DNA of 60,615 nucleotides, from IMG/VR virus record IMGVR_UViG_3300046314_000297, one strand, 5' to 3'. The position numbers were made by a program, and so were the translations under genes. Below, piece after piece: positions 25,769 to 44,754 of the stretch. The DNA is from an uncultured virus (IMG/VR IMGVR_UViG_3300046314_000297). Its lineage: Duplodnaviria > Heunggongvirae > Uroviricota > Caudoviricetes. Every line of letters starts with the position of its first letter. The stretch's first letter is position 1. The notes below the pieces were generated by a model. That model was not told the origin of the DNA. It saw only the letters and a program-made list of their open reading frames with translations, and did not search any database.

Positions 25769-25950
25769 CTAGTAGCTCAGCTCCTTCCCAACTTCCAACG
25801 AAGCCTGGGACCTGAATGCTGAATTTAGTCCCGTATTCATTTTTTCAATACACGTATTCATTTTTTCACAAGAGCAAAACACCCGCTGCGTGATTTGACT
25901 CGCCGAACCTTTTCTGCTAAGTTTGACCTAAGCAATGAAAGGACGGAAAA

Positions 25951-26481
25951 ATGCACGTTGCGCACATACTGCTTGTTCAAGCAGACTCAGCAGAGGACGC
26001 CTTTGAGAGGGTCGAAAGCGAACTATCACCAACTGACTATGGAGTTCGACCAGAGTGGTCAGACTGGCACAATGCCAACAACTCAGCAGAGATGAACTTT
26101 GCTGGTCGTTGGACTGGTTCATTCTTCAAGAGCGATAAAGAGGACGAGCCAAACCCAAACCACCTTTGCTACGCAGATGACAAGGCGCTCGCAGAAAGTG
26201 TTATCTCTGACCAGTTAGCCATGCGTGACGCGGAGATTGCCAACATTAGAAAGAACATGGTTTCAGACCTTTCTACTGTCACAATCAACCACTACGCAGA
26301 AAAGTGGAACATGGATTACTGGTATACCCAGAAGTTCCTCAAGTTGGCAGATAACGAGTGGACTCCAGACTCATACATTTATGACCTAGAAACCAGCACA
26401 GCGTCACTTCACTGGTTCATGGAGCGTGTCATGCTCGTGCCAAAGAAGCAGTTTCTGGTTCCTGTGGACTTCCATTATTAG
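25951..26481 (+). CDS. Hypothetical phage protein
   Basis: AAAGGACGG RBS. Motifs WSDW...AGRW and C-terminal VDFH. Confidence 0.7.
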   Translation: MHVAHILLVQADSAEDAFERVESELSPTDYGVRPEWSDWHNANNSAEMNFAGRWTGSFFKSDKEDEPNPNHLCYADDKALAESVISDQLAMRDAEIANIRKNMVSDLSTVTINHYAEKWNMDYWYTQKFLKLADNEWTPDSYIYDLETSTASLHWFMERVMLVPKKQFLVPVDFHY

Positions 26482-26510
26482 AAGTGGAGAAGTGGTGATA
26501 CACTTTTCTT

Positions 26511-26966
26511 ATGAAATCAATAGACAGATTTACAACTAAATACAAAATCAATCTAGAAACAGGCTGCTGGGACTGGATAGCAGGGACATCGGCTGGGTAT
26601 GGAGCGTTCGCGTACGAGCGCGGCAAAAAAGCCCATAGATTCTCGTACGAATACCACAACAACACCATTCTCGGCGAACTGACTATCGACCACTTATGTA
26701 GGAATACACTGTGCGTAAATCCAGAACACTTAGAGGCAGTACCTAAGGGGGAGAACTCTAGGCGCAGAAATCTCAACCACACCTATAAGAAAAAAGAAGT
26801 CTGTAAGAATGGACACTTCATAGGAAAAAATGAATACGTCAGACCAGATGGCTACTCTGAGTGCCTACTATGTAGGAGTGATAGAGGTAAGGCTTATAGG
26901 GAGAAGCATGGAGACGAGCATAGAGCCAAACTTCGTAAGTATTACCACGACAAAAAAAATAAATAA
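26511..26966 (+). CDS. HNH endonuclease
   Basis: GCWDW.....GYG....AHRFSY...IDHLCRN..CVNPEHLE.V...EN. AT-rich, with a leaderless start. Confidence 0.92.
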   Translation: MKSIDRFTTKYKINLETGCWDWIAGTSAGYGAFAYERGKKAHRFSYEYHNNTILGELTIDHLCRNTLCVNPEHLEAVPKGENSRRRNLNHTYKKKEVCKNGHFIGKNEYVRPDGYSECLLCRSDRGKAYREKHGDEHRAKLRKYYHDKKNK

Positions 26967-27055
26967 AAAACTTTCAAAATAGACTTGACACTTCGAACGA
27001 ATGGTGTAAAGTTATCAGTAGGTGGAAATCACCACCCAAAAAGTAAGGACGGAAA

Positions 27056-27526
27056 ATGACAACAATCGTTGAGCCAGTAGTCGAGACAGGTAAGCCAGCA
27101 ATCGCTGGTGTTGGTATCTATCTCGAACTCGTGCCAAAGGGCGACAACCCACACAACAAGACCACCCAGATTTTGTTTACCCCACAAGGTATGACAGAAA
27201 AGGGTCAGCCAGTAGGACTCGCCATGATTTCTCGTGAGGTCTCAACTTGGTCGCCACGCAAGCAATGGAGGCACAACTTCTCTCGCTTGACAGCAGAGCA
27301 AGAAGCACTCGCACCAGCAGACCAAGCACTCGCACTAATCGCTCGTTTCGAGACTTCTCTCAAGCGTGAGATTTACTATGGCTACGAACTACGCAACAAG
27401 CCAATCGTTTTCGAAGTTACCAACCTAGACCTCGCCGAGGTTCTGGACTGGAAAGCACCTGCTTCGGCACTACGCCGAATCCAAAAGGCACGAGTATCTC
27501 TCGGCTTTCCAGAGAAGTTAGTTTAG
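27056..27526 (+). CDS. Hypothetical protein
   Basis: Own promoter (26985) and AAGGACGG RBS. Confidence 0.7.
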   Translation: MTTIVEPVVETGKPAIAGVGIYLELVPKGDNPHNKTTQILFTPQGMTEKGQPVGLAMISREVSTWSPRKQWRHNFSRLTAEQEALAPADQALALIARFETSLKREIYYGYELRNKPIVFEVTNLDLAEVLDWKAPASALRRIQKARVSLGFPEKLV

Positions 27527-27549
27527 TCAAGGAATAGGACGGAAAAATC

Positions 27550-28590
27550 ATGACTACAACCACAGCAACCCCAGCACCAGCAACACGCTCAATGGACACC
27601 ATTGAGGTAGACGAACTGTTCGCCAATCTGACAGGTATGCTTTTCAGCGTGGCTGTTCAGGACAAGGACGCAAGTCTCAAGTCTCCAAATCTCGACTCCC
27701 TAATGCCACCTGCCGCTCGTGCTAATCTTAGAGCAAAGGCTGGCACAGGACAGGTAAAGGTAGCGAAGAAGTCAATGGTCAATGTTGAAGCACTAGAGGG
27801 TGTCGAGAAGTATCCTCGCCCAAATGGTCAGGATTACTACGCTCGCCCTTGGGGTGAACACACAGACATCGAGGTTCTCCGCAAGGCTCGAACTGCTGAC
27901 CAGTTTGTTCTCCTCTATGGTGCGCCCGGAACTGGTAAGACTGCCGCTGTTGAAGCAGCGTTCCCAGACGAACTTTACACAGTCTTGGGTTCAGGCGACA
28001 CCGAAGTTTCTGACCTCGTTGGAGGGTATGTTCAGACTCCAAGTGGCGGCTTCGAGTGGGTGGACGGTTCTCTCGTTCGCGCCGCCGAAGAGGGTAAGGT
28101 TCTTCTCATTGACGAGATTGGTCTCATTGACCCAAAGGTCTTGTCAATCGTTTATGGTCTCATGGACGGACGCAGGGAATACACCGTCACAGCGAACCCA
28201 GAGCGCGGAACTGTCAAGGCGAAAGAGGGCTTCTATGTAATCGCCGCGACTAACCCAAATGCCCCAGGAGTTCGCCTATCAGAGGCGTTGCTATCTCGCT
28301 TCTCACTCCAAGTTGAAATGACAACTGACTGGGGTCTTGCCAAGAAGTTGGGCGTTCCAGTAATCGCTGTAACTGCCGCGCAGAACCTTGCGAAGAAGCA
28401 GAGCAATGGAGAAGTTTCTTGGTCTCCACAAATGCGTGAGTTGCTCAACTTCAAGACAGTCTCGACCTTGTTTGGTTCGAAGTTCGCTGTCGAGAACCTC
28501 GCAGGTTCAGCACCAGAACTTGACCGTTCTGTTGTGGTAGATGTTCTGACCCGAGTGTTCGGCGAAGAAGTCAAGCCAGCCAAGATTTAG
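27550..28590 (+). CDS. MoxR/CbbQ/CobS-like AAA+ ATPase
   Basis: Walker A GAPGTGKT, Walker B LLIDEI, ATNP, and SEALLSRF arginine finger. Confidence 0.9.
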   Translation: MTTTTATPAPATRSMDTIEVDELFANLTGMLFSVAVQDKDASLKSPNLDSLMPPAARANLRAKAGTGQVKVAKKSMVNVEALEGVEKYPRPNGQDYYARPWGEHTDIEVLRKARTADQFVLLYGAPGTGKTAAVEAAFPDELYTVLGSGDTEVSDLVGGYVQTPSGGFEWVDGSLVRAAEEGKVLLIDEIGLIDPKVLSIVYGLMDGRREYTVTANPERGTVKAKEGFYVIAATNPNAPGVRLSEALLSRFSLQVEMTTDWGLAKKLGVPVIAVTAAQNLAKKQSNGEVSWSPQMRELLNFKTVSTLFGSKFAVENLAGSAPELDRSVVVDVLTRVFGEEVKPAKI

Positions 28591-28711
28591 CAACACCGTC
28601 CGTTGCTAATCGGGGAGTGTCAAAAAAGTTTTCGAATGGACTTGACACTCCCCACCCACTTATGCTACTTTGTTGGTAGGACGAAACACCAACACGAATA
28701 AAGGACGAAAC

Positions 28712-30484
28712 ATGGCACACTTATCTAGACTCTCAACTCGCACGAGTTCAACTCCTGTCGAGTGGCTCAAGACCTGTTCACACATTGGCGAAGTTGCTAA
28801 TGCTTGGGCTGGTCGTGGAGACCTTGCTGTCTACGCTGGCGAGGACGCTGGCATGGGCGAGGCACTTGCTTGCTTCATTATCGAGACAGCAGAAATCGAA
28901 ATCAACCTACCAAAGGCTTTTGGCAAGGCGACCACTCCAGAAATGGTTGGCGACCTACGCTTGCGCGAAGTTCAGTATGACTGGGCAGAGCCAGTTGGCG
29001 TTATCTATCACGAGGCACTTCACGCTCGTTACACCACTTGGAACATGGAGGCACTCAAGGAGAGTCCAAAGGTCGAGATTGACGCTTTCATGTTGCTAGA
29101 GGAGTCACGCATTGAAGCACGAGGCGCACGACTAATCCCAAGTAACAAGTTGTTCTTGCGCTCGTCTGCCCTTGGTCTCTCGATTGGTGACATGGCAGAG
29201 GCTGTCAAGGACATGAGCGAGGTCTGGGCGACTGCCAACCTCGCAGGTCTGGCACTTGCTCGTGTAGACGCTGGCGTTCTCGAAGCGAGTGATGTCACGA
29301 TTATCGAGGGCAAGGTTCTCGAGATTCTGGGCGAGGACTTGCTTGGCAAGTTGCGTTCAGTCTGGGTTCGCTTTCAGGCACTAGAGACTTCACAAATGGA
29401 ACAGGGCAAGGCACTCGCTCAAGAGTGGGTCGAGTTGCTACGCGAGGCAGACCCAGAGGGCGAACCTCAAGAGGGTGGCGCAGGTGGCGCAATGTCACAG
29501 GCACTCCAAGACTTGATTGACGCGCTTGGCGAGGCTGCTGGCGATACTGCTGTTCAGGTCTCGATTGACATGGGCGACCAGCAGGATTCAGAGGAACGCA
29601 AGGCAGAGGCAGAGGAACGCGCCAAGGAAAGCAAGCGACAGAACGACAACAAGCAGGAGTCGCGCGAAGTGTTCACTCGCTCGAATGGCTCGACTGGTTC
29701 TGGGTCAGATTCACGACTCCAAGAACAGCGCAACCCAACTGGACACGAACGCGCCGCCGCTGTTCAGATTGCCAAGATGTTGGAAAAGGCAAAGTATCGT
29801 GAACGCTCGCTCACCGAAATCAAGAGCCACGCGCCACAGGGTCGCCTCAAGGCTCGCGTTGCTATTCAGAACGCCGCCGCGAAGTCGCGTGGAGTTCGTG
29901 AGACACAGCCAGCGTGGGTCGCCAAGAAGCGCAAGCACACAGACGACCCGAACCTAAGCATTGGTGTCATGGTGGACATTAGCGGCTCAATGAGTTCGGC
30001 AATGGAGGCAATGGCAACTACGGCGTGGGTCATGGGAGAAGCAGGTCGCCGCGTTCAAGCCAAGACCGCAATGGTCTACTTCGGCTCGGGAGTGTTCTCG
30101 ACTCTCAAGGTCGGTCAGAAGTTGGACAAGGTTTCGGTCTACTCCGCGCCAGACGGAACGGAGAAGTTTGACAAGGCGTTCAAGGCACTAGACGGCGAGT
30201 TGAACCTGACCTACGGCGAGGGTGTTCGTATGTTGGTCGTTGTATCAGACGGACAGTTCACCAGCGTAGAAATGGAAAAGGCTCAAGCCGCGGCTCGCCT
30301 TTGTGACCGCAACGGAGTCGCGCTTCTTTGGATTACGCCAGAGGCTTGCTGGAGTGGCAAGGGTCAAGCCTTGCTCAACGGCACGAGCGGCGTGGTTCTG
30401 GACAAGATGAAAACAGACGAGATTGCGCTCGCTATCGGTAAAGCCGCCGCCGAAGCACTCGGTAAGGTGGGTTCAAAGTTCTAG
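28712..30484 (+). CDS. CobT-like protein: HExxH domain plus C-terminal VWA domain
   Basis: YHEALH...LLEESRIE, an acidic linker, MIDAS DISGSM and VVSDG. Paired with the upstream ATPase. Confidence 0.85.
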   Translation: MAHLSRLSTRTSSTPVEWLKTCSHIGEVANAWAGRGDLAVYAGEDAGMGEALACFIIETAEIEINLPKAFGKATTPEMVGDLRLREVQYDWAEPVGVIYHEALHARYTTWNMEALKESPKVEIDAFMLLEESRIEARGARLIPSNKLFLRSSALGLSIGDMAEAVKDMSEVWATANLAGLALARVDAGVLEASDVTIIEGKVLEILGEDLLGKLRSVWVRFQALETSQMEQGKALAQEWVELLREADPEGEPQEGGAGGAMSQALQDLIDALGEAAGDTAVQVSIDMGDQQDSEERKAEAEERAKESKRQNDNKQESREVFTRSNGSTGSGSDSRLQEQRNPTGHERAAAVQIAKMLEKAKYRERSLTEIKSHAPQGRLKARVAIQNAAAKSRGVRETQPAWVAKKRKHTDDPNLSIGVMVDISGSMSSAMEAMATTAWVMGEAGRRVQAKTAMVYFGSGVFSTLKVGQKLDKVSVYSAPDGTEKFDKAFKALDGELNLTYGEGVRMLVVVSDGQFTSVEMEKAQAAARLCDRNGVALLWITPEACWSGKGQALLNGTSGVVLDKMKTDEIALAIGKAAAEALGKVGSKF

Positions 30485-30717
30485 GATTCCACTAGCGCAA
30501 CGGTAGGCTTTCGGGTTCGTTCATGCCCGCCTCCTTTCCCTATCGGCTACTGGATAGAGACCCTCGACAGATTCGTCCCTGTCGGGGGTTTCGCACTTTC
30601 GGCGAGCGCAGGTCGTATTCATTTTTTCATTCTGTCTTTCGACTTCTGACGAAAGATGTTTGACACTCGTTTGAAGTATGCTAAGTTTGAACTATTCCTA
30701 GAAAGGGGAAAACAGAA

Positions 30718-31644: not shown

Positions 31645-31890
31645 CGTGGCAACACCAAAGACACCGAAGCCGAAGATGGGCAACGGCGCAACGACTCGTC
31701 TGACAGACGGACGACGCAAGTAGCAGAGGGAGAGGGCGAAAGCCCTCTCTTTTCTTTTGCCCCTCGTATTCATTTTTTCGTCATTGCCACGCCGATACAC
31801 GCCGCGATTTGACACGAGTTTGGAATAGGGTATAGACTACGAGAGTAGTCAACGAGGAAATGCCTCGACTACACAAAGGAGGGGATTGAA

Positions 31891-32283: not shown

Positions 32284-32446
32284 TCCACTCACGAAAGTCG
32301 CTGGCGAGAGTTCCCCTCTCTCGCTGGCGATTTTTTGTATGGAGGCTGTATTCATTTTTTCATTAGATCCATAACTTCCAACGAATGGTTTGACTTGGAG
32401 ATAACAAACTGGTAAAGTGGAAGTAACTCAACCAAAGGGGATTCAA

Positions 32447-32899: not shown

Positions 32900-32901
32900 G
32901 T

Positions 32902-33126
32902 ATGAGAAAAGACATCAAGCAACTACGGATACTCGCAGAGCAACAAGGCTGGAGAGTAGAGCGCACTAACGGCGACCACTTACGGTGGCTCGCGCCAGAG
33001 GGTGGCATGGCTATCTACTCGGCAAGCACACCGTCTAATGCTCGCGGAATACTCAACCTCAGAGCGCAACTGCGTAAAGCGGGTCTACATTTAGAGAAGC
33101 ACGGCAAGCAAAAGGTGAACGCATGA
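32902..33126 (+). CDS. HicA-like small basic protein
   Basis: QGWRVERTNGDHLRW..P.G.....STPS. Confidence 0.6.
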   Translation: MRKDIKQLRILAEQQGWRVERTNGDHLRWLAPEGGMAIYSASTPSNARGILNLRAQLRKAGLHLEKHGKQKVNA

Positions 33127-33419
33127 AACTGTATCGGCAAGCACTAGGCGAGGTTCTGCGCGAAGCAAGAACGGTGAGGGGTCAGACCCTGCGACAAGTC
33201 TCAACGGCTGCCTCGTGCGCCCTCGGATACCTGTCGGAGTTGGAGAACGGACACAAGGAAGCGTCCTCGGAGATTTTGGAGGGGCTTGCCCGTGCGCTCA
33301 AGGTGACGGTGAGTGAACTCGCTATCCGTGCTGGCTTGCGTATAGCGGAGGAGAGTATCCCTGATACCCCTGCCGAACTCTACGAGGAAGCACCGGCCCT
33401 CATTCCTCACCGAGGATAG
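33123..33419 (+). CDS. XRE-family HTH regulator, ClgR-like
   Basis: LGEVLR..R...G.TLRQVS......LGYLSELE.G.KEASSE.L...AL. Confidence 0.8.
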   Translation: MKLYRQALGEVLREARTVRGQTLRQVSTAASCALGYLSELENGHKEASSEILEGLARALKVTVSELAIRAGLRIAEESIPDTPAELYEEAPALIPHRG

Positions 33420-33533
33420 CCTCGGGTGGTAACCCCGTATTCATTTTTTCAACAACCGACACGGCGAGCGCAATACTTGCTTGACGGCTTGCCGTAGGGT
33501 ATAGTTGGACTATCCAATGAAAGGGGTTGCCAA

Positions 33534-33929: not shown

Positions 33930-34105
33930 AGACCTTACCGAACAGATAGAGAAAACGCGGGAACTTGCTATCCCGCGTTTTTTCATAGTCGGGGTCGTAT
34001 TCATTTTTTCAACCGGCACGACACTTCACACTAAGATTTGGAAGTTGGCACGGAAAGTGGTAAGGTTGAACTATCACCGAAGACAAGGGTGAGAAAAGGG
34101 AAGAG

Positions 34106-37100
34106 ATGAACGAGATAAAGATTTGCCCAAAGTGTCAGGGCTACATCCCAAACAACAAGACACCGGGGGCATACTCAGGCGCGATTTCACGCCGAGACAA
34201 CAAGACAGAGATTTGTTCGGCTTGCGGAACTCATGAAGCGTTCGAGGACCTTTTCGCGAAAGAGCGAGTCAATGGCTAAGGCAGAGTGTTACGACTGTGA
34301 CGCGGAAATTGAAGTCGAAGACTCAACCTATGTCCACCCCTTGTGCGCTGAGTGTCAGAACGAAGCAGACGACTGGCTACAAACACAGATGTTGCTAATG
34401 AACTAAAAGTCACGCTCACCGAAAGGTGGGCGTTTCTTTTACGCCGCATCGCGTATTCATTTTTTCACCAACACAGTGGCGATTACTCACAACAACTCAC
34501 GAATGATTTGATTTTGTCCTAGCAGGGTGATAAGTTTGATTTGTTGCCGAAGTTCAGTAAGCAACGAAAGGGGCAACAAAATGGGTAACAGGGCTTGGAT
34601 TCAGATTTCAGCAGAGCAGTTTGAAACACCTATCAGCCTTTATGGTCACTGGTCGGGCGAGGACAACCTCACCGCCGTAGTCAAGACCCTAGAGAGTTCA
34701 ACACGCATTGGGGATGTGTCATACCTCACAGCACAGATTTTCTTCCACTTCACGCAACTAGGTGGCTACACAGGCGACACAGGGTTTGGCATTTCGACAG
34801 GCGAAGCCCCTAGCGTAGACGATGTGGACACCGTTTATGTGAACGCTGATAATGGTGAGTATACTTATCAGGGCGTAACTCACCACGAGTTTGCGCTAAT
34901 GAAGGCTTGAGTCGAGGTCGAGTCCACCACTCCCTTGATTCATTGGGTTAGGGTTAGCCCCCTTTCCCTAACCCCGAACGCCAGTAGATAATCCCCTTAT
35001 CTACTGGCGTTCACCATTTCTCAGGGATACGAGGCGTATTCATTTTTTCCTCGAGCTCAGACACGACGCAACAACTCACGAATGATTTGACTTGATACGA
35101 GTTATGTGTTACTTTTGTATTGCCTTTGAAAAGGCAGAAAGATAAGGGGCAACATGGAAAAGGTATTAGAGATTCGCAAGTTTGAGATTAGCTCAGACTG
35201 TTCATGCGAGGTATACGACGAGGACACAGACACGTCTTCACCAAGCGACGAGTGTTTCAACTGTTTCGCCGACGACAAGGATAATTTCAAATACGTGATT
35301 CTTCAGCCATGGCTTGAGGCTAATGGTTGGGATGAGGACACAGTTGTTTATGTGTTCAGCGCGAACATGAACTGGAATCACGTCGCGGGATGGACAAACG
35401 TCTACGCGAGAGAGGCTATCGACTGCCTAACTTTGAATGGCGAGTTTACCCTTAGTTACAAGTTGGATGGCAAGAACTTGACTTGCGTTCGTTCAAGCCA
35501 CGACGAACATGGCGCGTTGTTCACGTTCAGTGAGGCACAGAAGGATTATCGCGATGAGTAACCTAGTGTTCACCGGCCCTCGCGCCGTTCTCTCTCAGTT
35601 GTCTGCCGATTCGACAGTCATGTTCTCTCAGTTGATAGAGGATGACGAGTTGGTCGCGATGGTGTTAGCCAAGAAGCCATACGACACGTTGCTTGAATAC
35701 GTGAACGAAAACTACTGAGTCACGACAGGGAAGCCCCGCGGAAACGCGGGGTTTCTTTTTGCCCGCGGGAAGTCGCCGTATTCATTTTTTCAGCGAGCCT
35801 AGAGCCGACACGCTTAGGATTTGGTGTTTTTTGAAATAGGGGGTATCATTGACTTATGAAGTCAATAAGGCTTCACTAAATAGAAGGGGGTCGCCAAATG
35901 GCTACCAAGATTCAGAAGGCAACCGCGGTTGTCACCGAGGCTCGCAAGGTCTCAAAGGTTGTTGTTGCTAACGCCGAGCGTCTAGCGTTCGTTCGTGCCG
36001 AGGTTATTCGTCTAGAGGCAGAAGCCAAGCTCTTGCGCGATGGGCTTATCGCGGTTGCCGATGGCGCAACTACTCTTGTCCACAACAACATCGCCATCGT
36101 TGAGATTTCACCACGCTCAACCTCACGCGTAGACTCGAAGGCGTTGAAGGTTATGTTTCCTGAAGCATACGAGGCAACACTCAAAGTCACCGTATCACCT
36201 GTCGTGGATGTTCTGAAGCGATAAACGCCACGAGGAAGCCCCCTAGGATTCTCTAGGGGGTTTTTCCTTACCCTAAACACGCCAAGCCCGCCACGAGGCA
36301 CACAGCCCCGCCACGAGGGCGTATTCATTTTTTCGTCAAAACACGCCAGCTGAGGATTTGATTTGACAAGTGTCCGGCTTATGGATAAGATTTAGTTATA
36401 ACTAAATAGATGCACCACTCAATGCACCACCAACCTAAGGGGATTCAAATGGCAACTATGGCACCTGCTACCAACACCACTACCAAGTTCGACCTAGGCG
36501 CGACTCTAGACGAGCCGACCACCGCATCAGTCGTCACCGAGGTCGAGAAGTTCGACAACACTATGGTCTATGCCAAGACTTCACTAGAGATGTTCGTTAG
36601 CGCGGATAACGTGGATGACACAGTCTACCTTGACCTTCGCCAACTCAACTTTGTACGACTGGGCCCAACCGACGAAGAACAGATGCACGTATTCACCACC
36701 TTGCTCAACCACCGCTTCACTCGCGAGCAGGCCGAGGCACTGGTCGCCACGTTCACTCACGAACTCGCGAAACTCTAGCGAGCGCGACAAGCCCCTGTCG
36801 AAAGGCAGGGGTTTTGTCATTCCCCGGCTGTATTCATTTTTTCACAAGAAGACACAGGAGTGGGCTGAGATACTATGTTTTGTCCGAGGGGTTTGATAAA
36901 ATGGGAGTATCCAAATGAAAGGGGATAAAGAATGACAAACTACAGCGACGTGGAAGTTGCTCTTGAGAACGCTAAGGCGATTGCTTGGGACACCTGCCAC
37001 AAGATTTACGTTCTAATGGATGACGAGCAAGTTGAGAAGATGCGCGAGTACGAGTACGACCCTCTAATCACGAGCGACGAGATGGACCCTAGCGAAATGC

Positions 37101-38493
37101 TGTCCACGATTCAAACTTGGTATGAGGACTCTTGCGGATTGCGTTTCGTAGAAAGCGTCACCACAAATCACGAAGACCCTAACCTTGGGTTTGAAAGTCT
37201 GATTCCACAGGGCGCGGATGACGAAGATGACGACACCGACGAATCTGAAGACGACTACTTCGATGACGAGGATGACGAAGATGAGTAAGTTCGCGTTCAA
37301 CCTAGTTCTCAAGACTGATTACATCGAAGCAGAGAACATCGAAGAAGCAGAGAAGTTGCTGAACAAGTACATCGATGGGCTGGCTATGGTTGGTGAGCCT
37401 GAGATTACTTGGGACGAAGTTGACTGGCAGACCTTTGAAGGCGACCTAGTAATCAAAGACTTTAGTTCGCCCCTCAACTGAGCACGAAGAAGAACGCTCT
37501 CGAAAGAGGGCGTTTTTTCTCAGGCCCGTTGTATTCATTTTTTCAACTGGCGACACGGGGGGTTGGTCGAAAGTTGCGAAGGTTTGTCGAAAGTAGTAAA
37601 GTAGTTCTGTTGGCAAAAGCCAGCGTAAAGGGATAAGGGGTTTGAAATGAAGTTTGTAGTTCGTAGAGCAGTCATTGGAGTTCTAGCAGTTCCAGCAGTA
37701 GCCGGTGCGTATGTGTTTGGGTATCTAGGTCTGTTGCTTCTAGGCGCGGAGGGTGCGCTCAAGATTGAAGAAATCTGGAACAATGGAATGTTGATTGGTG
37801 GCGTGTGTGCCGTAATGCTCGTGTTCGCGCCACAGGTAAACAAGTTCCTCGACAGGGTTACTGGAGAGTAAAAGACTTGGCAGGGTTTATCCCCCTATCC
37901 CCTGCCCAAGAAAAGAGCGTGACCATTCCGCTCACGGCTAGGCACTTCCCCCAAGTGTCTAGCCTTTTTCTTTGCTCGGAAGTGTATTCATTTTTTCACC
38001 CTGCGACACGCGGATACAGATTGGATTTGCGCTCGCCGAGGATTTCCTGTAATGTAGTTCTTGTAGCCAGCAAGGGGTTGGCAGACAAGGGGTTCAAATG
38101 CTAAAGACTTCAACAGCCGAGTGCGTAGATTGCGCGGTTGCTATCACCAGCGACAACACGCAAGACGAGGGTGGAAAGTTTGCTTCACCACAGGGGGAAT
38201 ACGCTATCTGCGACAACTGCGCCAATGCTCGCATTGACGCTTACCTAGAGAACTAAGGGGCAGGGAAAATGGCCGACTCAATGAAAGGTTCTGGGATTGA
38301 CTCCGAGGACTACACCGCTTGGTTCTTTTGCTCACATTGTGACGAGGAACTGGAACTTGATGGAAAGTCAGACGACTATGGGATTATTGCGACAGCCGAG
38401 TGTCCTAAGTGCCGTTCAACCCTAGAGGTTGAAATGCCTAGCAAGGAACAGTTGCGCGAGGACTACCTAGCCGACTACGACCCAAACAACTAA
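34106..38493 (+). CDS. Small cassette genes: 34106-34279, 34272-34406, 34581-34910, 35154-35561, 35554-35718, 35898-36224, 36449-36778, 36932-37288, 37281-37481, 37647-37871, 38098-38256, 38269-38493
   Basis: The first gene of each unit follows a promoter and a purine-rich (mostly AAGGGG) RBS. Most are acidic or CxxC proteins, and 37647-37871 is a two-TM protein. Functions unknown. Confidence 0.7.
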
Positions 38494-38738
38494 ATAGACT
38501 TACCTAGCGCGGGCAACTTCGCTAGGTGGGAGAGAACCGAGTAACCCCCTTGCTCGTGCGACTCCGAAAGAGCCAGACACTAATCCCCTTGTGTCTGGTT
38601 CTTTTGTTTCTACGGTGCTATTCATTTTTTCAGCAAGACTCCCCCGGGCGTGTCGATTTGCGCCACCCTGGTTGGGGTGCTACAGTTGATACTGTAGTCA
38701 GGAAGCAGATAGCGGAGGGCTACACGCAAGGGGAAGAA

Positions 38739-39074: not shown

Positions 39075-39111
39075 TTTCACCAGGACGCCCCTCGGCAGAA
39101 ATGCCGGGGGG

Positions 39112-39162
39112 TTTTCCACAGCCTGTGGAAAGTTATCCACAGACTTATCCACATGTGGATAA
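39112..39162. promoter_or_regulatory. Cluster of five DnaA-box-like 9-mers
   Basis: TTTTCCACA at 39112 (+), CTTTCCACA at 39124 (-), TTATCCACA at 39133 (+), 39145 (+) and 39154 (-). Confidence 0.85.
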
Positions 39163-39307
39163 CTTTTTTTGGAGAGGTCTATTCATTTTTTCGTCAAACG
39201 ACACGCACTTACGGAGACGATTTGACAGCTGCCAAAAACCCGAGTAGGCTTACTAATGTAATCAGGAAGCCAAGGGGGCGGAGGGTTACTGAAGGGGTGG
39301 GGTTCCA

Positions 39308-39646
39308 ATGGGACTTCTTATCAGCGTGTATCGGTCGGACTACGACAGCAAGGCAAATGTTTTCCACGGAAAGCGTCAGCTAGTTCTCGTGAATGTCGAA
39401 GGGCCATTCCAGCCATCAGACAACGCACCAGCTGCCAAGTTGGTTCAGGGTCACGGTAAGACCGCAATCATCGTGCCAGCGGACGAAGGCTTTGACGGCG
39501 TTCAGATGAACGGCGGAACTTACGGCTCAACCAGCGACAGTCGCTTTCAGCGAGCCGTAGAGGGACTAGTCGGAGTCTCACACTTTGCGGTGGCAATCCA
39601 CGACCGTCGTGAGTCGTGGGCGGAATACGAGCAGTTCAGCCAGTAG
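39308..39646 (+). CDS. Hypothetical phage protein
   Basis: Motifs NVEGPF.P...APA, MNGGTY..TSDSRF and AIHDR.E. Own promoter and terminator. Confidence 0.7.
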   Translation: MGLLISVYRSDYDSKANVFHGKRQLVLVNVEGPFQPSDNAPAAKLVQGHGKTAIIVPADEGFDGVQMNGGTYGSTSDSRFQRAVEGLVGVSHFAVAIHDRRESWAEYEQFSQ

Positions 39647-39801
39647 GCAACCAAGCGAAAGGCTCACCCGAAGGGGTGGGCTTTTTTCTTGCTCGTTAGT
39701 CTATTCATTTTTTCATCCGGATGCGGGGAAGCTTGCGCGGTTCGTTGGAAGTTGGTAAAGTTGGAGTATCAACCAGATTGGTTGAAGATAAGGGGCTTCA
39801 A

Positions 39802-40149
39802 ATGGAAAAGATTGGTTTGGTAGTGGACTCGGAGTTCACCGCGTCTGTGACCAGGTTGTCACTCAAGGAACTACAAGCTGCGGTCGATGGTCTGATTCAG
39901 CCGATTGACATTCGCGAGGGCTTGACTATGTGGGTAAACGAGGAGTTCTTGTTTCGCTCAGAACCAGACGCAAACGTTTTGGCTAGTGCGTTCTTCGCTG
40001 AGGCTGGTGGAAAGTATGACATCCACGGAACTGTCGTCTTCACTGGTGGCACGGATGAGGATGGCAACACTCTCGGGCTGTCAGACGAGCACCGCGAGTT
40101 AGTGGAGTCGCTCTGTAAGTTCGGGATTGGCGTTCGCGAAATGGCTTAG
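39802..40149 (+). CDS. DUF3846-like protein
   Basis: LKELQAAVDG.I......MWVNEE......N..AS......I.G.VVFTG..D..G.T.GL. Confidence 0.75.
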   Translation: MEKIGLVVDSEFTASVTRLSLKELQAAVDGLIQPIDIREGLTMWVNEEFLFRSEPDANVLASAFFAEAGGKYDIHGTVVFTGGTDEDGNTLGLSDEHRELVESLCKFGIGVREMA

Positions 40150-40321
40150 ATTTCAAAAAAGGAAAGTCCGGCTTCGGTCGGGCTTTTTCTTTTTCTCGGG
40201 GCTATTCATTTTTTCCTTCAGCTCGCAGACAACACACGGAAGTTCGTGGGAAGTTGCGTAGGCAGGGCGTTTCGATTAGGCTTAGGTCATAAGCCAAATG
40301 GTTTGGCGAAAGGGGATTCAA

Positions 40322-43300
40322 ATGGCAACCAAGAACGCGAACGCAGATTTCGTTTTCGAACTCGTTATGAAGATGGCGGGCGGGGCGGACAAGTATTCAA
40401 TCCACACTCAGGGCGCAATCTGGGCTGAGTGTCAGCGCAACTCATCACTACAAACGCTAGCGGGAATGTATCTCGTTGGTTCATCAGCACGCGCAGAGAA
40501 CAACCTAAAGAAGTTGCGCTCTGCCGTTTACTCAACATTCCTAGAGAGGAACTAATAATGGCAATGTCATACGGAGAGCGTAAAGCGCAAGCAATCGCTA
40601 GGCGTAATGCGGAACTACTCACGCGAGATTCTATGTTGGAGATTCGCAGTATTCTAAGTCCAATGCCCTACGCGCCTAAGTCGGTGCTAGAGGGCGTGCC
40701 GTTCGTAATAGAGAACTTGACCCCAATGGAATTAGATGTGGAGTTCGTGGGCGACACAATCACAATCAAAGAAGCGGTGCGCTAATGCGGGCGTGGCACT
40801 TGCTCAAGTATCGAACTTGGCGCGTGGTCGGTTCGCTGGCGTTCGGTCTGTATCACCGCTCTGCTCAATGGTCTCACGAAGCGTTCGTGCGGGCTGGCAA
40901 GTCTGGTGCGGACAATGACTAGGGGCGAGAGTCTGGCTGTTCTTTTACGCTCGGTGGCTGGCGGTCTGGGATTTGTCTGGCTGTTTGGTTTTGCCGTTGG
41001 CTGGCAAGACCCTGTATCGCCGTTCGTTGTTTCCACACTTGCCGTTGGATTCTTGTGGGGTGCGTGGCGCGTGGGTCGTTAGTGACCCCGCGTTCGCGCT
41101 TGCGTGCGGACTATTCATTTTTTCCCTAATCCCCCTGCGGGCACACGGATGATTTGACTTTCATTTGCGGAGTAGGGTAGGCTAGTCGTAGACCAGCCAA
41201 GGGGGCTGGGGAGAGGGGCATCATGATTCACATCTTCTGTGCGGACTGCGACGGCTGGGACTCGTTCCCATCTGGCGGGTCACACAACTGCGAGACCGTC
41301 GAGTTCGTTACCAACCCATCCGCTGGGTTCATCGGTGGCGACTGCTGGTTCGGGGACGACTCGGACTACTAGGCGAAAGCCTAGCCAACCCCTCACCTTC
41401 GGGTGGGGGGTTTCTTTCTGTTCGTGAGAAGTTGTCTGTGCGGGAGTGCTATTCATTTTTTCCCTAGGCGACACGCTTGCGGGGGGTATGATTTGACTTT
41501 GCCGGAGGATGTGTTAGGCTAGTCCTAGGACAAGCCAAAGGGGCTTGCCAGAAAAGGGGATTCAAAATGTTCGGTCAGACTTTCTCAGGAATCGAAATCA
41601 CTGTTCGCGAAGCAAACGGCTCAATCGTATGTGCGCCAACCTACGAAGCACACACCACGGCGAAGCAGTTGGAACTTATCAACGCAACCAAAGCAATGCT
41701 TACCGCTGGTCGCTCAATCACTTGGCGTTTGTTCTAAGCCAACTTCCAACGAAGCCCGTCACCTCGGTGGCGGGTTTTGTTTTGCCCTGTGGGTCTATTC
41801 ATTTTTTCGTCAAGTCGGGCATGCGGGTGACACGATTTGATTCGCGCACCGTAAAGTGCTAAGCTCATGGGTAGAGCTTCAAAGGGGGGCTCAATAGTTC
41901 AAAGGGGTATTTATGTTTGGGTTCAACGAGTGCGCACACTCTGAGTCGGAATCGTATGGCACTAGCCAGATTCATTGGGATGACCGCTCTGCGGGTATCG
42001 GCTGGGTTCAAGCTCCGTGCGCTGAGTGCGGGGAATCGCTAACATGGGTTATCAACGCATGAGCGCCCTGCTAGCAACCCGCGAGACTACTGCGGGCATT
42101 ATCGCGGGGATGCTTACCGAAAACACTGGTCGGAGCTTCCTAGACTCTGGGGGTGAATCGGGACGTGCGTGGCAGAGAAACGCGGGCATGACCGTGGCAG
42201 ACTTTGAAGCCCGCCCTGCGGGTACCTATGACGCTGAGTATGAGACGCTTACGGTAGACACATTCCATTACTTGAATGAGCTACTAACCTTTGACGCTGA
42301 GCGCACTGCGGAATGGGTGACCTTTGACGCTGAGCGGTCGCACCTATCGTGGGGCGAAACTTTGGATGAATGGCTTGACACTCTAGGCGTCCCTGCCGAA
42401 GGGGGTGGGGATTTTTACTCTAACGCGCGATGGGGATTCAACAGCTACAACTTTGATGGGTGTTTGCTGAGCTCCACGATTCAGGGCGTCAAGTTTGTCT
42501 CTGCGGGCACTGAGTACCTAGCCCTTCAGATTCATGGCGGGGCTGACGTGCGGGGCGGTTACACGGCATTCAAGATTTTCACTGGAGACATTGAATCAGT
42601 GATTCTCGGGACTACTCGCGCAACCCTGCGATGCCCTGAGTGCGACTTTTATGCGGGCTACTCCGATGGCATGTTGGAAGATTACTACCTAGGTGACGCG
42701 CTAGCTGACCCGAACATGTTGATTGAGATGGATGTGCCTACGGAGCTCCCTGCGGGATGGGCAATCTCTGACGGTTGCCCTTTGCATAAGGTCGCTCTGG
42801 TTTAGCTCTACTCGGGAACCCCTGCTTCGGCGGGGGTTTTCGCATGTGCGGGGGAGCTATTCATTTTTTCCTGCTCTGCAACGAGTGCGGGCGTGATTTG
42901 ACAAGTTTCGAATAGCTGATAGGATTTAGTCATAACTAAATAGCTCCAATTAACCGACAACCAAAGGGGACAACATGTCAACAGCAACAACTACCGCTAG
43001 CTTCTTCGTGCTAGCCGTCTCAACCAAGGGTGAGCTGCGCTTCACCCGTGGCAACAGCTTCGTTACTCGCGGTGCTGCAACCTTCGAAGCTTCTCAGAGC
43101 AACAAGCTCACTGAGCACCTTCGTGCTCAGGGATGGGACACTAGCTACAAAGTGTTCTCTGCCGATGAGCTCAACGCCCTGGGTGCGCTAGGTATTCGCA
43201 TCGGTGAAGCCTACTAGGCACACGCTCAAAGATGACCCCGCCATCGTGCGGGGTTTTCTTTTTGCTCAGGGGTTGCATTTATCTTGCGGGGCATGTATGA

Positions 43301-43789
43301 TTGACTTATCAAGTCAAGGTGACTTGGAGATAAGGGGTTCAAAATGAAAACACGTAACGCACGCGCATGGAGCGCAATCTTTATTCTTGGCATGGCAGTA
43401 GTCGGCGCGGTCGACTTGAACAACATCCAATCAGCTGACGATGCCAGTGAATTCTTTGGGTACGTTGTCGCTGTAGACGTGGCCATGTTTGCGGTAGGCC
43501 TAGCCCTGTTCGCCTACAACATCGCAACCTTCAAGCGTTCAAAGGTAGGTGCATAATGACGCACGCGGTGTTGATTGAAGATGCACTTACGGGTGACCTT
43601 CTTGACCTTCGTTACTACTGCTCTGATTCATGCGCTCAGGATGACGTGGCCTACTCAGGATGGAATGGCTGCATTGAGCTCATGTTTGGGCAAGTGTGTG
43701 AGCGTGAAGGGTGTGAGAGCATCCTGCATGGCGTGAGCGAGTGTGTCTGCTCTGACGCTTCGTGTGTCGGGTCTCTGATAGACGTCTAG
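40322..43789 (+). CDS. Small cassette genes: 40322-40555, 40558-40785, 41223-41372, 41567-41737, 42044-42805, 42975-43217, 43344-43556, 43556-43789
   Basis: Promoter, RBS and terminator context. 42044-42805 has ENTGRSFLDSGG..GRAWQRN and LQIHGGADVRGGY motifs. Functions unknown. Confidence 0.65.
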
Positions 43790-44754
43790 CCCCTAAGCAT
43801 CCACGTTAGCCCCTAGCTCAGTGCTAGGGGTTTTCGTATGTCTGCGGGCACCTTATCCCTGCGGTGACCTTATAGGGGCGTCTCAGGGCGTATAGCCCCC
43901 TGCGGTGACAACTATCCTGCGCTCAGGGTTGCACGCTCTGCCACGGGTCTCTCTAGCCACGTGTGCCCCTATGCACTAGCGGGCGGGGTGTAGCTAGCTC
44001 ATGCTCATGAGTAGGTTGGTACCTAGGCATGGGCATGCTTATCACTGGAGATTCTGAGCATGACCTTTGTCTAGCCATGACCGGGCGCGTGAGCTATCGA
44101 TTGATGAGAGCATGAACAACAAGCAACCCTTCATGGGTAGCCGCTAGCGAGACGGGCATTAGGCGTGTGCATGAACACCTAGGCATGATAGGCAGCCATA
44201 GAATCCATGAGCGTGCTCACCTTGTCGCTCACGTGGCTAGGGGTTGTTGGCGTAGGGTGTAGGATAGGCATGCTTCTCAAACGGGCATGTATCAATTTGG
44301 AAAACATGCTTGACTTTGGTCGCGGGTTATGGTAGACTACTCCATCTTTTGGCGTGACGGACGGTGCTCCACGGCCGATTCAGGAAACGTTTCGAGAGGG
44401 GTCGATTTATAGCTGCTGCCCTCTCGCACCCCAAAAGCATTTCAACGTCAACCTTACCCTAGTGCCGTCGGTTGTCAAATTCCTCCTTGAATTCTCCTAC
44501 CTTAGACGCCCCTATTTCTAAAATCCCCCTCCACAAATTTTCAAAAAATACGTCCCAAGTTGCATCACGACCAAAAATCCGACATAATAGACGCAGTTAT
44601 TGTGCTACCATATTTAAACGGGAGCGCATTCAGCCACTAAAAGGTTGGATGTGCTTTTTTGCATCTCTGACAAGTACCACCCACAATTAAATAAGAAACA
44701 CCAAGACAAGAAACAGCTGAGTACTAACTCTCACCAGGAAAGGTAGGCTGCCTA

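What the first reader, a model, noticed from the sequence alone, without database searches (positions are those of the whole stretch)
25834..43830. Array of about 20 stand-alone gene cassettes, each headed by an invariant 13-bp TATTCATTTTTTC box
Seen: 22 exact copies, all on the + strand and all intergenic. The usual unit is terminator or hairpin, box, often an ACACG submotif, (GAT)TTGNNN-N17-TANNNT promoter, AAGGGG-type RBS, 1-4 small genes, terminator. The sequence flanking the box is not conserved, yet the box never varies. Known analogues are mycobacteriophage stoperators and start-associated sequences, and repeated early-promoter modules of T4-like phages, but I do not recognise this motif. 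Inference: one regulon controlling an interchangeable library of host-takeover or anti-defence genes, with the box as a protein-binding site and possibly a crossover point for cassette exchange.
Basis: partly seen in the sequence, partly recalled or inferred. Interest (0 to 1): 0.92.

Follow-up and report, generated by a model that had tools for sequence, protein, structure and literature searches.

The report
Invariant boundary box in phage gene-cassette array
A 13-base sequence that never varies marks the head of about twenty small, self-contained gene units in an uncultured freshwater phage; related phages carry their own versions, and it most likely serves as a protein docking site for the unit's promoter and as a joint where units are gained, lost and reshuffled.

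Summary
There are no one-mismatch copies, and shuffles give 0. The box lies about 17 nt after a terminator stem and 26-31 nt before a sigma-70-like -35.

It is not unique to this window. Relatives carry their own exact boxes, a variable head followed by T6, in the same layout and confined to the same small-gene region. Box type does not follow genome relatedness. Near-identical phages differ at matching sites, while barely related phages share the window's box.

In relatives the box also works reversed at the same structural position. That argues against a promoter or an RNA signal and for a DNA-level protein site.

Two cassette indels between 97%-identical phages break exactly inside the box, and cassette order is shuffled between arrays.

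Best reading (about 0.55): an operator for a sequence-specific factor that controls every cassette promoter, with the repeats also acting as crossover points. The factor, the direction of regulation and the timing are not shown, and no RNA data exist. A host-takeover or anti-defence role for the genes is unsupported.

I found no published description.

The parts
25834..43830 (+). Array of about 21 box-headed transcription units (cassettes), all on the + strand. Includes one larger unit holding the AAA_5 ATPase and the 604-aa CobT-like protein.
25834..25846 (+). Box copy 1, first of a tandem pair set 21 bp apart
   Evidence: Exact match. 48 nt to the -35 at 25895. No canonical terminator upstream. 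Tandem pairs at the matching place in relatives L140, L144, L151 and G005.
25855..25867 (+). Box copy 2
   Evidence: 27 nt to TTGACT-17-TAAGTT.
26824..26836 (-). The only reversed box copy, inside the HNH ORF
   Evidence: Lies in a segment that is absent from other strains.
26454..26954 (+). Strain-variable HNH endonuclease insertion
   Evidence: HNH_3 / phrog_826. Contigs of runs X8 and X10 join 26453 to 26955 with 26 other letters between.
27550..30484 (+). AAA_5 ATPase (27550-28590) and 604-aa CobT-like protein (28670-30484). This conserved anchor was used to fetch relatives.
30616..30628 (+). Box copy
   Evidence: 31 nt to TTGACA-16-TAAGTT.
31767..31779 (+). Box copy
   Evidence: 29 nt to the -35. 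Terminator 14 nt upstream.
32349..32361 (+). Box copy
   Evidence: 28 nt to the -35. Terminator 19 nt upstream.
33438..33450 (+). Box copy
   Evidence: 26 nt to the -35. Hairpin without a T-run upstream.
33998..34010 (+). Box copy
   Evidence: 27 nt to the -35. Terminator 17 nt upstream.
34454..34466 (+). Box copy
   Evidence: 41 nt to the -35. Terminator 20 nt upstream.
35037..35049 (+). Box copy
   Evidence: 37 nt to the -35. No terminator by my criteria.
35779..35791 (+). Box copy
   Evidence: 29 nt to the -35. Terminator 23 nt upstream.
36322..36334 (+). Box copy
   Evidence: 28 nt to TTGACA-17-TAAGAT. No terminator call.
36831..36843 (+). Box copy
   Evidence: No promoter by my criteria. 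Terminator 17 nt upstream.
37532..37544 (+). Box copy
   Evidence: 29 nt to the -35. Terminator 17 nt upstream.
37985..37997 (+). Box copy, the last one with G at position -1
   Evidence: 29 nt to the -35. Terminator 20 nt upstream.
38619..38631 (+). Box copy, the first one with C at position -1
   Evidence: 26 nt to the -35. Terminator 17 nt upstream.
39180..39192 (+). Box copy. Its cassette (gene 39308-39646) is shared with contig 3300044971_003253.
   Evidence: 29 nt to the -35. 70% aa homolog, again box-bounded, with homology starting about 62 nt after the box in both phages.
39702..39714 (+). Box copy
   Evidence: 18 nt to the best -35 call (weak). Terminator 16 nt upstream.
40203..40215 (+). 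Box copy
   Evidence: 38 nt to the -35. Terminator 14 nt upstream.
41112..41124 (+). Box copy
   Evidence: 29 nt to the -35. No terminator by my criteria.
41450..41462 (+). Box copy
   Evidence: 30 nt to the -35. Terminator 36 nt upstream.
41796..41808 (+). Box copy
   Evidence: 28 nt to the -35. Terminator 16 nt upstream.
42858..42870 (+). Box copy, the last one
   Evidence: 27 nt to TTGACA-16-TAGGAT. Terminator 21 nt upstream.
33123..33419 (+). XRE-type HTH protein (98 aa) inside the array. A weak candidate for the box-binding factor.
   Evidence: HTH_31/HTH_3. G002's ortholog has hits in all 6 genomes that carry a T6-type box and in neither of the 2 complete box-less genomes. The window's own protein also hits 8 of 69 box-less loci. 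It overlaps a weak HicA-like ORF, 32902-33126.

Best explanation
The box is a cis-acting DNA site that marks the head of each cassette in the phage's small-gene region. A sequence-specific DNA-binding factor, more likely phage-encoded or virion-borne than host-encoded, docks on it. From about -77 to -65 relative to the start site, the factor acts on the sigma-70-type promoter about 28 nt downstream, so that about 20 otherwise unrelated promoters answer to one signal.

Shown:
- The box is exact within the genome.
- It sits at a fixed distance from the promoter.
- It is confined to one region.
- It works in either orientation in relatives.
- Relatives use discrete box types that do not follow genome relatedness.
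- Cassette indels break inside the box.

Inferred:
- A protein binds the box.
- Binding regulates transcription. At this position I lean towards activation or recruitment, about 60:40 over repression or shut-off.
- The region is expressed early.

Because the boxes are exact direct repeats, they also serve, probably passively, as crossover points through which whole promoter-gene-terminator cassettes are deleted, inserted and reshuffled.
For: 1. Exactness. The window has 23 exact copies and none with one mismatch. Contig 3300044971_003253 also has 23 exact and none with one mismatch.

2. Promoter link. In the window, 16 of the 21 called gaps from box end to the -35 are 26-31 nt. Pooled over lineages, 46 of 77 forward-box gaps are 26-29 nt, with smaller groups at 36-38 (8) and 47-48 (5). 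The distance from terminator to box is looser: 52 of 74 fall at 12-24 nt.

3. DNA level, not strand-specific. In G005, 13 of 32 boxes are reversed relative to gene direction yet sit in the same place, after a terminator and 34-51 nt before a TTGACA-type promoter. A reversed copy of the window's box in L259 lies about 57 nt before TTGACT-17-TATACT.

4. Confined to one region in every genome. G002 has boxes at 102.4-119.4 kb of 129.6 kb; G007 at 28.6-53.4 of 119.7 kb and G008 at 43-61 of 110.9 kb. The window has none outside 25.8-42.9 kb.

5. Matched change across sites.
- L126 and L125 are 95% identical over 5.8 kb, but at two matching sites the box and its near flanks are swapped between TATTCATTTTTTC and TATCCACTTTTTT.
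- L155 and L151 are about 87% identical, yet differ by the same single base at 7 positionally matched boxes.
- The window's box is also found exact in G004, in 3300044971_003253 and in L238/L268, which share almost no nucleotide similarity with the window.

6. No RNA polymerase family among 100 of the 117 ORFs of 90 aa or more in G002 that were scanned.

7. Crossover role. The L124 vs L125 indels of 528 and 437 bp are bounded by boxes on both sides, and homology switches inside the box. Cassette order is permuted between the window and G002, G004, 3300044971_003253 and L238.
Against: - No binding protein is identified. Two searches for proteins whose similarity follows box type rather than genome relatedness gave no clear candidate.
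- The one protein with a fitting presence/absence pattern (XRE HTH 33123-33419) also occurs in 8 of 69 box-less loci and may be an antitoxin.
- Transcription-factor sites are normally degenerate. 13 of 13 identity in 23 copies is stricter than such binding usually demands.
- The box is not palindromic.
- Nine of the 21 RBS-backed promoter-like sites on the window's + strand have no box.
- In some relatives the box sits directly before an RBS with no promoter in between (L140 3811 and 8040, L151 5245). In G005 one forward box lies between a promoter and the RBS.
- Promoters and terminators were called by simple rules. There are no transcription start data and no RNA runs.
- G004, which holds both box types, could be a chimeric assembly.
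Confidence: 0.55

Rival explanations
1. Boundary roadblock or insulator. A protein bound at the box stalls RNA polymerase that has read through the upstream hairpin. This completes termination and isolates each cassette. The promoter link is secondary.
For: - The box starts 12-24 nt after the terminator stem in 52 of 74 forward cases pooled over lineages. In the window the range is 14-23 nt in 13 of 14. By my own reasoning, not tested, that would put a stalled polymerase's active site near the T-run.
- Reversed copies keep a similar distance from the terminator (13-37 nt), while their distance to the promoter spreads over 21-59 nt.
- Some boxes follow a terminator and directly precede an RBS.
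Against: - Spacing to the -35 is tighter than spacing to the terminator.
- Only 14 of 22 window boxes have a canonical terminator upstream, against 21 of 22 with a promoter downstream.
- The leading tandem pair has no terminator.
Confidence: 0.15
2. Dedicated recombination site. The box is the core site of a site-specific recombinase that excises and inserts promoter-bearing cassettes, as in an integron.
For: - Strand exchange needs identical cores, which would explain 13 of 13 identity.
- Two cassette indels have both breakpoints in the box.
- Cassette order is permuted and most cassettes are not shared between arrays.
- G002 and G004 encode a 221-aa serine recombinase.
Against: - The recombinase has no counterpart in the 73.8 kb held for the window's phage.
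- DSL-LC01 is annotated with a recombinase yet has no box.
- The box has no inverted-repeat arms.
- A recombination-only role does not explain the fixed 26-31 nt distance to the -35.
- One gene swap between L124 and L125 breaks at start codons, not at boxes.
- 13-16 bp direct repeats can give such deletions passively.
Confidence: 0.1
3. Intrinsic DNA element with no dedicated factor. The T6 tract bends the DNA, or offers a distal contact for RNA polymerase or a general AT-binding nucleoid protein, and so boosts the promoter.
For: - T6 is the one part shared by all box types.
- It works in either orientation.
- The box is an AT-rich island in DNA of 49-54% GC.
- Secondary spacing groups lie about 10 and 19-20 nt beyond the main peak.
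Against: A bend or a general AT-binder would not hold the 6-7 nt head invariant. It also would not make close relatives change the same head bases at every site.
Confidence: 0.08
4. The box is itself a phage-specific promoter (for a phage RNA polymerase or sigma factor), or a strand-specific RNA signal such as a processing or antitermination site.
For: - Exact, lineage-specific short motifs are typical of promoters for phage-encoded polymerases (from general knowledge).
- Some relatives have a box directly before the RBS with no other promoter visible.
Against: - Reversed copies occupy the same structural place: 13 of 32 in G005 and 3 of 23 in 3300044971_003253.
- No RNA polymerase family among the 100 G002 ORFs scanned. 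Unusual polymerases could be missed.
- The boxes are absent from the structural and replication gene regions.
Confidence: 0.04
5. The box is a site for another DNA transaction, for example strand-specific nicking by a phage endonuclease, or exclusion of competing phages by cutting the rival box type.
For: - The sequence is exact, and nearly all copies in the window lie on one strand.
- A mobile HNH endonuclease sits in the array and carries a box copy.
- Discrete box types differ between close relatives.
Against: - Nothing links the HNH gene to the box, and that gene is absent from other strains that keep the array.
- A nicking or cutting role does not explain the fixed distance to the promoter.
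- Only contigs, not raw reads, were available, so nicks could not be looked for.
Confidence: 0.05

Closest known systems
Stoperators of cluster A mycobacteriophages (L5 repressor sites).
   Same: A short asymmetric site of about 13 bp, repeated 20 or more times in one phage genome, lying between genes and mostly in one orientation. Site variants differ between related phages.
   Different: - Here the sites are confined to one 17-kb region.
- Each sits at a fixed distance upstream of its own promoter, not inside long operons.
- Relatives use them in both orientations.
- No repressor or integrase was seen in the held 44% of the genome.
- The phage looks lytic, which is an inference.
Upstream activator sites of the class I type, and phage phi29 p4 sites. 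Recalled.
   Same: A site centred about 70-80 bp upstream of the start, at a fixed distance from the promoter, with secondary groups roughly one and two helical turns further out.
   Different: Those sites are inverted repeats for dimers and are degenerate. This box is asymmetric and exact, and no activator is known.
Early-promoter arrays of large lytic phages (host-takeover module in the SPO1 terminal repeat; T4 and T5 early regions). Recalled.
   Same: Many small genes of unknown function, each with a strong host-type promoter and its own terminator. In a cultured relative, Pumpernickel, the homologous region lies at the genome end.
   Different: In those phages the repeated element is the promoter itself. 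That is also the case in relative DSL-LC01. Here the core promoter hexamers vary, and a separate upstream box is invariant.
Integron cassette arrays. Recalled.
   Same: A row of exchangeable gene units separated by a repeated site. Whole-unit gain and loss occurs with breakpoints at that site, and unit order is shuffled.
   Different: There is no integrase next to the array. The site is a 13-bp asymmetric box, not a long imperfect palindrome. Every cassette carries its own promoter and terminator.
Start-associated sequences of cluster K mycobacteriophages. Recalled.
   Same: A 13-bp asymmetric repeat that precedes many genes.
   Different: Those abut the start codon. The window's box lies about 95-130 nt upstream of starts, ahead of the promoter. 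A motif of the start-associated kind does exist in other relatives, for example L146.

Membership tests
Stoperator-type repressor site array (mycobacteriophage cluster A) | Short asymmetric site repeated 20 or more times in the genome | tested here: met
   23 exact copies of a non-palindromic 13-mer.
Stoperator-type repressor site array (mycobacteriophage cluster A) | Sites spread through the early and late operons of the whole genome | tested here: not met
   Confined to 25.8-42.9 kb of the 73.8-kb contig, and to one 17-30 kb region in G002, G007 and G008.
Stoperator-type repressor site array (mycobacteriophage cluster A) | Cognate immunity repressor and a temperate life style | tested here: inconclusive
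   No integrase or repressor family among the window ORFs scanned (63, 56, 30). The contig is only 44% complete, and I made no direct search with a known repressor.
Phage-polymerase promoter | Orientation always matches the transcribed gene | tested here: not met
   13 of 32 boxes in G005 and 3 of 23 in 3300044971_003253 are reversed but sit in the same place relative to genes.
Phage-polymerase promoter | The phage encodes its own RNA polymerase | tested here: not met
   No RNA polymerase family among 100 of the 117 G002 ORFs of 90 aa or more, nor among the window ORFs. Divergent polymerases could escape Pfam.
UP element | AT-rich, directly upstream of the -35 (about -40 to -60), degenerate | tested here: not met
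   The box ends 26-31 nt upstream of the -35 and is invariant.
Class I-type activator site | Fixed or helically phased distance to the core promoter | tested here: met
   46 of 77 forward gaps are 26-29 nt, with groups at 36-38 and 47-48. The phasing is suggestive only.
Class I-type activator site | Known activator that binds the site | not testable with these tools
   Needs binding or reporter assays.
Integron | Integrase gene beside the array, and attC-type palindromic sites | tested here: not met
   No integrase in the window. The box has no inverted-repeat arms.
Integron | Cassette gain and loss with breakpoints at the repeated site | tested here: met
   Two indels (528 and 437 bp) between L124 and L125 switch homology inside the box.
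Start-associated sequence (cluster K) | Site abuts the start codon or RBS | tested here: not met
   A promoter and a 5' leader lie between the box and the start codon in 21 of 22 copies.

The most novel reading that the evidence does not exclude
Lytic freshwater actinophages carry a swappable 'operator code'. A small set of discrete box types, each read by a matching factor, defines regulatory compatibility groups. A close relative can change its type at every site. The same exact boxes act as the joints of an integron-like array whose cassettes each bring their own promoter and terminator, so early genes are traded between otherwise unrelated phages that share a box type.
Probability: 0.25. 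Interest if true: 0.85.

Novelty: new variant of a known kind. Interest (0 to 1): 0.7.

Why it matters
Repeated operator-like motifs are known in a few cultured actinophages, but how they work is mostly unsolved. Four features set this case apart:
- The system is seen across many uncultured freshwater phages.
- It has several discrete box types.
- Close relatives have changed type at matching sites.
- Whole gene units have been gained or lost exactly at the box.

That gives a concrete handle on two open questions. One is how large lytic phages co-ordinate dozens of unrelated early genes. The other is how their most variable region is rebuilt.

It also yields a simple rule for cutting such arrays into functional units when screening early genes. 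The natural box variants are ready-made controls for binding and reporter tests.

Tried and rejected
- Near-identity DNA searches of the window against the phage collection found nothing.
- A 14-mer scan of viral contigs gave only single chance hits. A box-plus-promoter pattern was again mostly chance hits, but it did find contig 3300044971_003253 and L238/L268.
- No RNA holder was listed among the 24 runs, which are almost all freshwater metagenome DNA, so expression, start sites and timing could not be examined.
- Only contigs could be laid, so read-end pile-ups (nicks) could not be examined. Parts of the array without cover in some runs are not interpreted.
- The search for the factor by comparing similarity with box type gave no clear candidate. 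G004 proteins closer to the window's phage than to G002 are a dUTPase, an HNH protein and small ORFs. G005 proteins closer to G007/G008 than to G006 are four small ORFs.
- The presence/absence profile singled out the XRE HTH, but it is not exclusive to box-bearing phages.
- A Rayleigh test for 10-bp phasing is uninformative, because the main peak dominates at every period. I rely on the histogram only.
- The simple promoter/terminator scanner was no better than shuffles in this region, so I used my own rule-based calls (19, 69, 70, 77).
- I considered a resemblance of the TATCCAC head to replication-initiator boxes and of the box to bending-protein sites (recalled) and dropped both: other box heads do not fit.
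- I considered a role for the box in a terminator of its own (one search shows three small hairpins that use the box's T-run). This is not general.
- Microbacterium phage Pumpernickel has no repeated box in its first 33 kb.
- Literature searches found no description: DSL-LC01 (listing only), actinophage repeat terms (listing only), and the literal motif strings (17 papers, none of the 15 listed about phages). Supplements were not examined.
- An earlier-findings look-up returned nothing.

Full report
**1. The observation**

TATTCATTTTTTC occurs 23 times exactly in the window, while 100 dinucleotide-preserving shuffles never produced it. Twenty-two copies are on the + strand between 25834 and 42870.

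Allowing mismatches adds only two 2-mismatch sites, which is the chance level (1.66 expected). There is therefore no one-mismatch copy at all. The window is part of a 73.8-kb IMG/VR contig (CheckV 44% complete), and that contig has no further copies.

**2. The setting**

The window belongs to a large actinophage. It encodes ribonucleotide reductase, WhiB, ThyX, dUTPase, lysis enzymes, an intein-bearing large terminase and a portal.

The nearest named relatives by portal protein are:
- the metagenome-assembled Actinomycetia phage DSL-LC01 (71.5%);
- Microbacterium phages of about 190 kb (60-67%);
- Arthrobacter phages.

The DNA runs that hold the array are almost all labelled freshwater metagenomes, with one aquatic, one groundwater and two unlabelled.

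The boxes lie in a run of small + strand genes between an endolysin-like gene and the terminase. Most of these genes have no family match. The named ones are an SSB, an XRE-type HTH beside a weak HicA-like ORF, DUF3846, zinc-ribbon proteins, and the conserved AAA_5 ATPase with a CobT-like pair.

In the cultured relative Pumpernickel the homologous region starts at the physical left end of the genome. That fits an early-entering, early-expressed region, but this is an inference.

**3. Anatomy**

Upstream of the box:
- Position -1 is always G or C: G in the first 14 copies and C in the last 8.
- A T-run is visible at -19 to -15.
- A hairpin plus T-run precedes 14 of 22 + copies, against 63 of 500 random positions. 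The stem ends 14-23 nt before the box in 13 of those 14.

Downstream of the box:
- A TTGNNN-N16-19-TANNNT promoter follows 21 of 22 + copies. In 16 of those 21 calls the gap from box end to the -35 is 26-31 nt; the others are 18, 37, 38, 41 and 48.
- The box therefore spans roughly -77 to -65.
- Between box and -35 lies the ACACG submotif. By my reading of the printed contexts it is usually 16-17 nt before the -35. GACACG occurs 14 times on + and 2 on - within 25001-44000.
- ACACG is not specific to this phage. Relative L141 has no box, yet carries CGACACGCC at the same distance from GATTTGACA. CGACACG is + biased in most loci.

The core promoter hexamers vary between copies; the box does not.

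Nine of the 21 RBS-backed promoter-like sites on the window's + strand have no box. The box therefore marks cassette heads, not every promoter.

**4. Relatives have their own boxes**

Using the CobT-like protein I fetched 76 related loci at 40-61% identity. Many carry an exact repeat of their own in the same layout of terminator, box, spacer and promoter:

| Locus or genome | Repeat | Copies |
|---|---|---|
| L124, L125 | GTATCCACTTTTTTA | 14-16 |
| L140 | TTGTAAATTTTTTAG | 15 |
| L144, L155, L175 | AACTGAAATTTTTTA | 11-15 |
| L151 | AACTGAACTTTTTT | 12 |

The shared part is T6. The head is specific to each lineage.

Other relatives have no such box:
- DSL-LC01 is syntenic but repeats the promoter itself, at about 20 copies.
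- L121 and L122 are the closest to the window by CobT (61%) and have none.
- The two complete genomes G009 and G010 have none.
- Pumpernickel has none.

In every box-bearing genome the boxes are confined to one contiguous 17-30 kb region.

**5. Box type does not follow genome relatedness**

Case A/B:
- L126 (contig G004) and L125 are 95.4% identical over 5.8 kb.
- At two matching sites the box, about 4 nt before it and 14-28 nt after it are replaced. The box changes from TATTCATTTTTTC to TATCCACTTTTTT, which is three transitions. The genes on either side stay about 99% identical.
- G004 holds three boxes of the window's type and one of the other type. It is either a natural intermediate or recombinant, or a chimeric assembly.

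Case D/E:
- L155 and L151 are about 87% identical, yet differ by one and the same base at seven positionally matched boxes.
- L155 shares its box with L144 and L175, to which it has no blastn match of 85% or more.
- G006 has 26 boxes of one type and 3 of the other by the 13-mer count; the 12-mer pattern gives 4.

The window's exact box also occurs in contigs that share almost no DNA similarity with the window:
- contig 3300044971_003253, with 20 forward and 3 reversed copies in 12 kb, and only one 375-bp, 73% match to the window;
- L238 and L268, with 3 copies each.

A matched change at many sites between close relatives, together with identity between distant phages, points to a common trans-acting reader with strict specificity.

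**6. Either orientation works**

In G005, read in gene direction, 19 boxes are forward and 13 are reversed. The reversed ones sit in the same place, after a terminator and 34-51 nt before a TTGACA-type promoter. A reversed copy of the window's box in L259 lies about 57 nt before a good promoter.

This argues against the box being a promoter or a strand-specific RNA signal. In addition, no RNA polymerase family was found among 100 of the 117 larger ORFs of G002.

Pooled over lineages, forward boxes lie 26-29 nt from the -35 in 46 of 77 calls, with smaller groups at 36-38 (8) and 47-48 (5). The distance from terminator to box is looser, at 12-24 nt in 52 of 74. The tighter tie is therefore to the promoter.

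The secondary groups hint at helical phasing, but the data are too few to prove it. My Rayleigh test was uninformative.

**7. Cassettes and crossovers**

L124 and L125 are about 97% identical. Two of their structural differences are whole-cassette indels of 528 and 437 bp. The upstream homology runs up to and through one box, and the downstream homology starts from the next box. A third difference is a gene swap with breakpoints at start codons.

Cassette content and order also differ between arrays:
- Only 8 of the window's 22 cassettes have a homolog in G002. They map in permuted order (3 to 1, 2 to 2, 5 to 4, 7 to 10, 10 to 3, 14 to 8, 17 to 11, 18 to 10), while the flanks are collinear.
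- Three window proteins match contig 3300044971_003253, in window cassettes 10, 14 and 16 and contig cassettes 18, 13 and 9, so the order is reversed. The cassette headed by 39180 matches from about 62 nt after the box in both phages.
- L238 has two extra cassettes between the HTH and SSB genes, which are neighbours in the window.
- Contigs of other lake samples show the array replaced between about 38.5 and 41.6 kb in one abundant strain.

The units are therefore interchangeable, and the box can be the joint. Exact 13-16 bp direct repeats can give such events passively. A dedicated recombinase is not needed and is not shown.

**8. Mechanism**

I commit to a protein-binding operator at each cassette head that couples about 20 unrelated promoters to one factor (confidence about 0.55). 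The crossover role is a by-product.

The position about 70 bp upstream and the fixed spacing favour recruitment or activation over repression. The sign of regulation, the factor and the timing are all inferred.

The exactness (13 of 13 in 23 copies) is stricter than usual for transcription-factor sites and remains partly unexplained.

Rivals:
- a roadblock that completes termination and insulates cassettes (0.15);
- a dedicated recombination site (0.10);
- an intrinsic bend or general AT-binder site (0.08);
- a nicking or exclusion target (0.05);
- a phage-specific promoter or RNA signal (0.04).

**9. The factor**

Two comparisons of protein similarity against box type gave no clear candidate.

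The orthologs of the XRE HTH (33123-33419), queried with G002's copy, have hits in all six box-bearing genomes and in neither of the two complete box-less genomes. The window's own protein also hits 8 of 69 box-less loci. It overlaps a weak HicA-like ORF, so it may be an antitoxin. It is a lead, not a finding.

**10. What is known, and novelty**

The closest analogues are stoperators, class I-type activator sites, the early-promoter arrays of large lytic phages, integron cassettes and start-associated sequences. All of these are recalled, not fetched. The membership tests show that this system fits none of them fully.

I found no description of these motifs. I checked the DSL-LC01 paper (listing only), general term searches (listing only) and the literal motif strings. 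Supplements were not examined.

I rate it a new variant of a known kind: a repeated operator-like site in a phage regulon. It has three unusual features, namely discrete swappable box types, orientation independence, and box-to-box cassette turnover.

**11. The reversed copy in the window**

The reversed copy lies in an HNH endonuclease segment (26454-26954) that other strains lack. Contigs of runs X8 and X10 join 26453 to 26955 with 26 other letters between. No link between this endonuclease and the box is shown.

Noticed in passing
window 26454-26954: The HNH_3 homing-type endonuclease gene is a presence/absence polymorphism. Contigs of two other freshwater runs skip it, with 26 different letters in its place. 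It carries the only reversed box copy.
   Followed up: partly
window 46963-49404: The large terminase subunit (813 aa) has Hom_end/LAGLIDADG domains ahead of its Terminase_6N and Terminase_6C domains, so it is probably intein-bearing. In G002 and DSL-LC01 the gene is about 1.4 kb and has no such insert.
   Followed up: no
window 25834-37997 versus 38619-42870: The base before the box is G in the first 14 copies and C in the last 8. GC content rises from about 49-50% to 53-54% near 38 kb, and the -10 hexamers shift to the TAGGCT type. The array looks like two sub-arrays of different origin. One abundant strain has 38.5-41.6 kb replaced.
   Followed up: partly
window, about 16-17 nt upstream of many -35 hexamers; also L141, L123, L144, L151: A second upstream element, (C)GACACG(CC), sits at a fixed distance from the -35 and is shared across lineages, whatever their box and even when they have none. 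It probably belongs to a different, conserved factor.
   Followed up: partly
L145-L150, L153, L154, L159, L162, L164, L170, L173, L176 and others: Another clade of relatives repeats TAGCAAAAAGTAAAAA 12-17 times. It often directly abuts an ATG (a start-associated layout) and sometimes lies 8-18 nt before a TTGACA.
   Followed up: no
L120 (DSL-LC01) 22.5-43.3 kb: The syntenic array of DSL-LC01 has about 20 copies of a near-identical extended -10 promoter, GATTCTAAAGWTGTTATAATWGAATC, and a shared ACGACGAAAGGACAA ribosome-binding leader. It has no box.
   Followed up: partly
L125 3590-3620, L126 8050-8080, G005 (several sites): A direct-repeat motif, GTTACCAAACTGTTACC or a close variant, lies between box and -35 at some promoters in several lineages. 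It may be a further regulator site.
   Followed up: no
window 32902-33419: A 74-aa ORF with a weak HicA-like match overlaps by 4 nt the start of a 98-aa XRE-type HTH gene. This may be a toxin-antitoxin-like pair inside a cassette.
   Followed up: no
L122 20900-21400: A dense cluster of short repeats (TTCGTTAGA, GGATCTAGCC and relatives) in about 500 bp, in the closest box-less relative. It looks like iterons.
   Followed up: no
G002 (L203-L204): This relative encodes two tryptophan-halogenase-like proteins, an ice-binding-like protein, a PhoH-PIN fusion, a 221-aa serine recombinase and several collagen-repeat proteins.
   Followed up: no
G005, gene-direction coordinates 7368-7484: A reversed and a forward box flank a promoter, about 100 bp apart, ahead of a conserved gene. 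The forward one lies directly before the RBS. This layout would suit repression by looping or by a roadblock.
   Followed up: no
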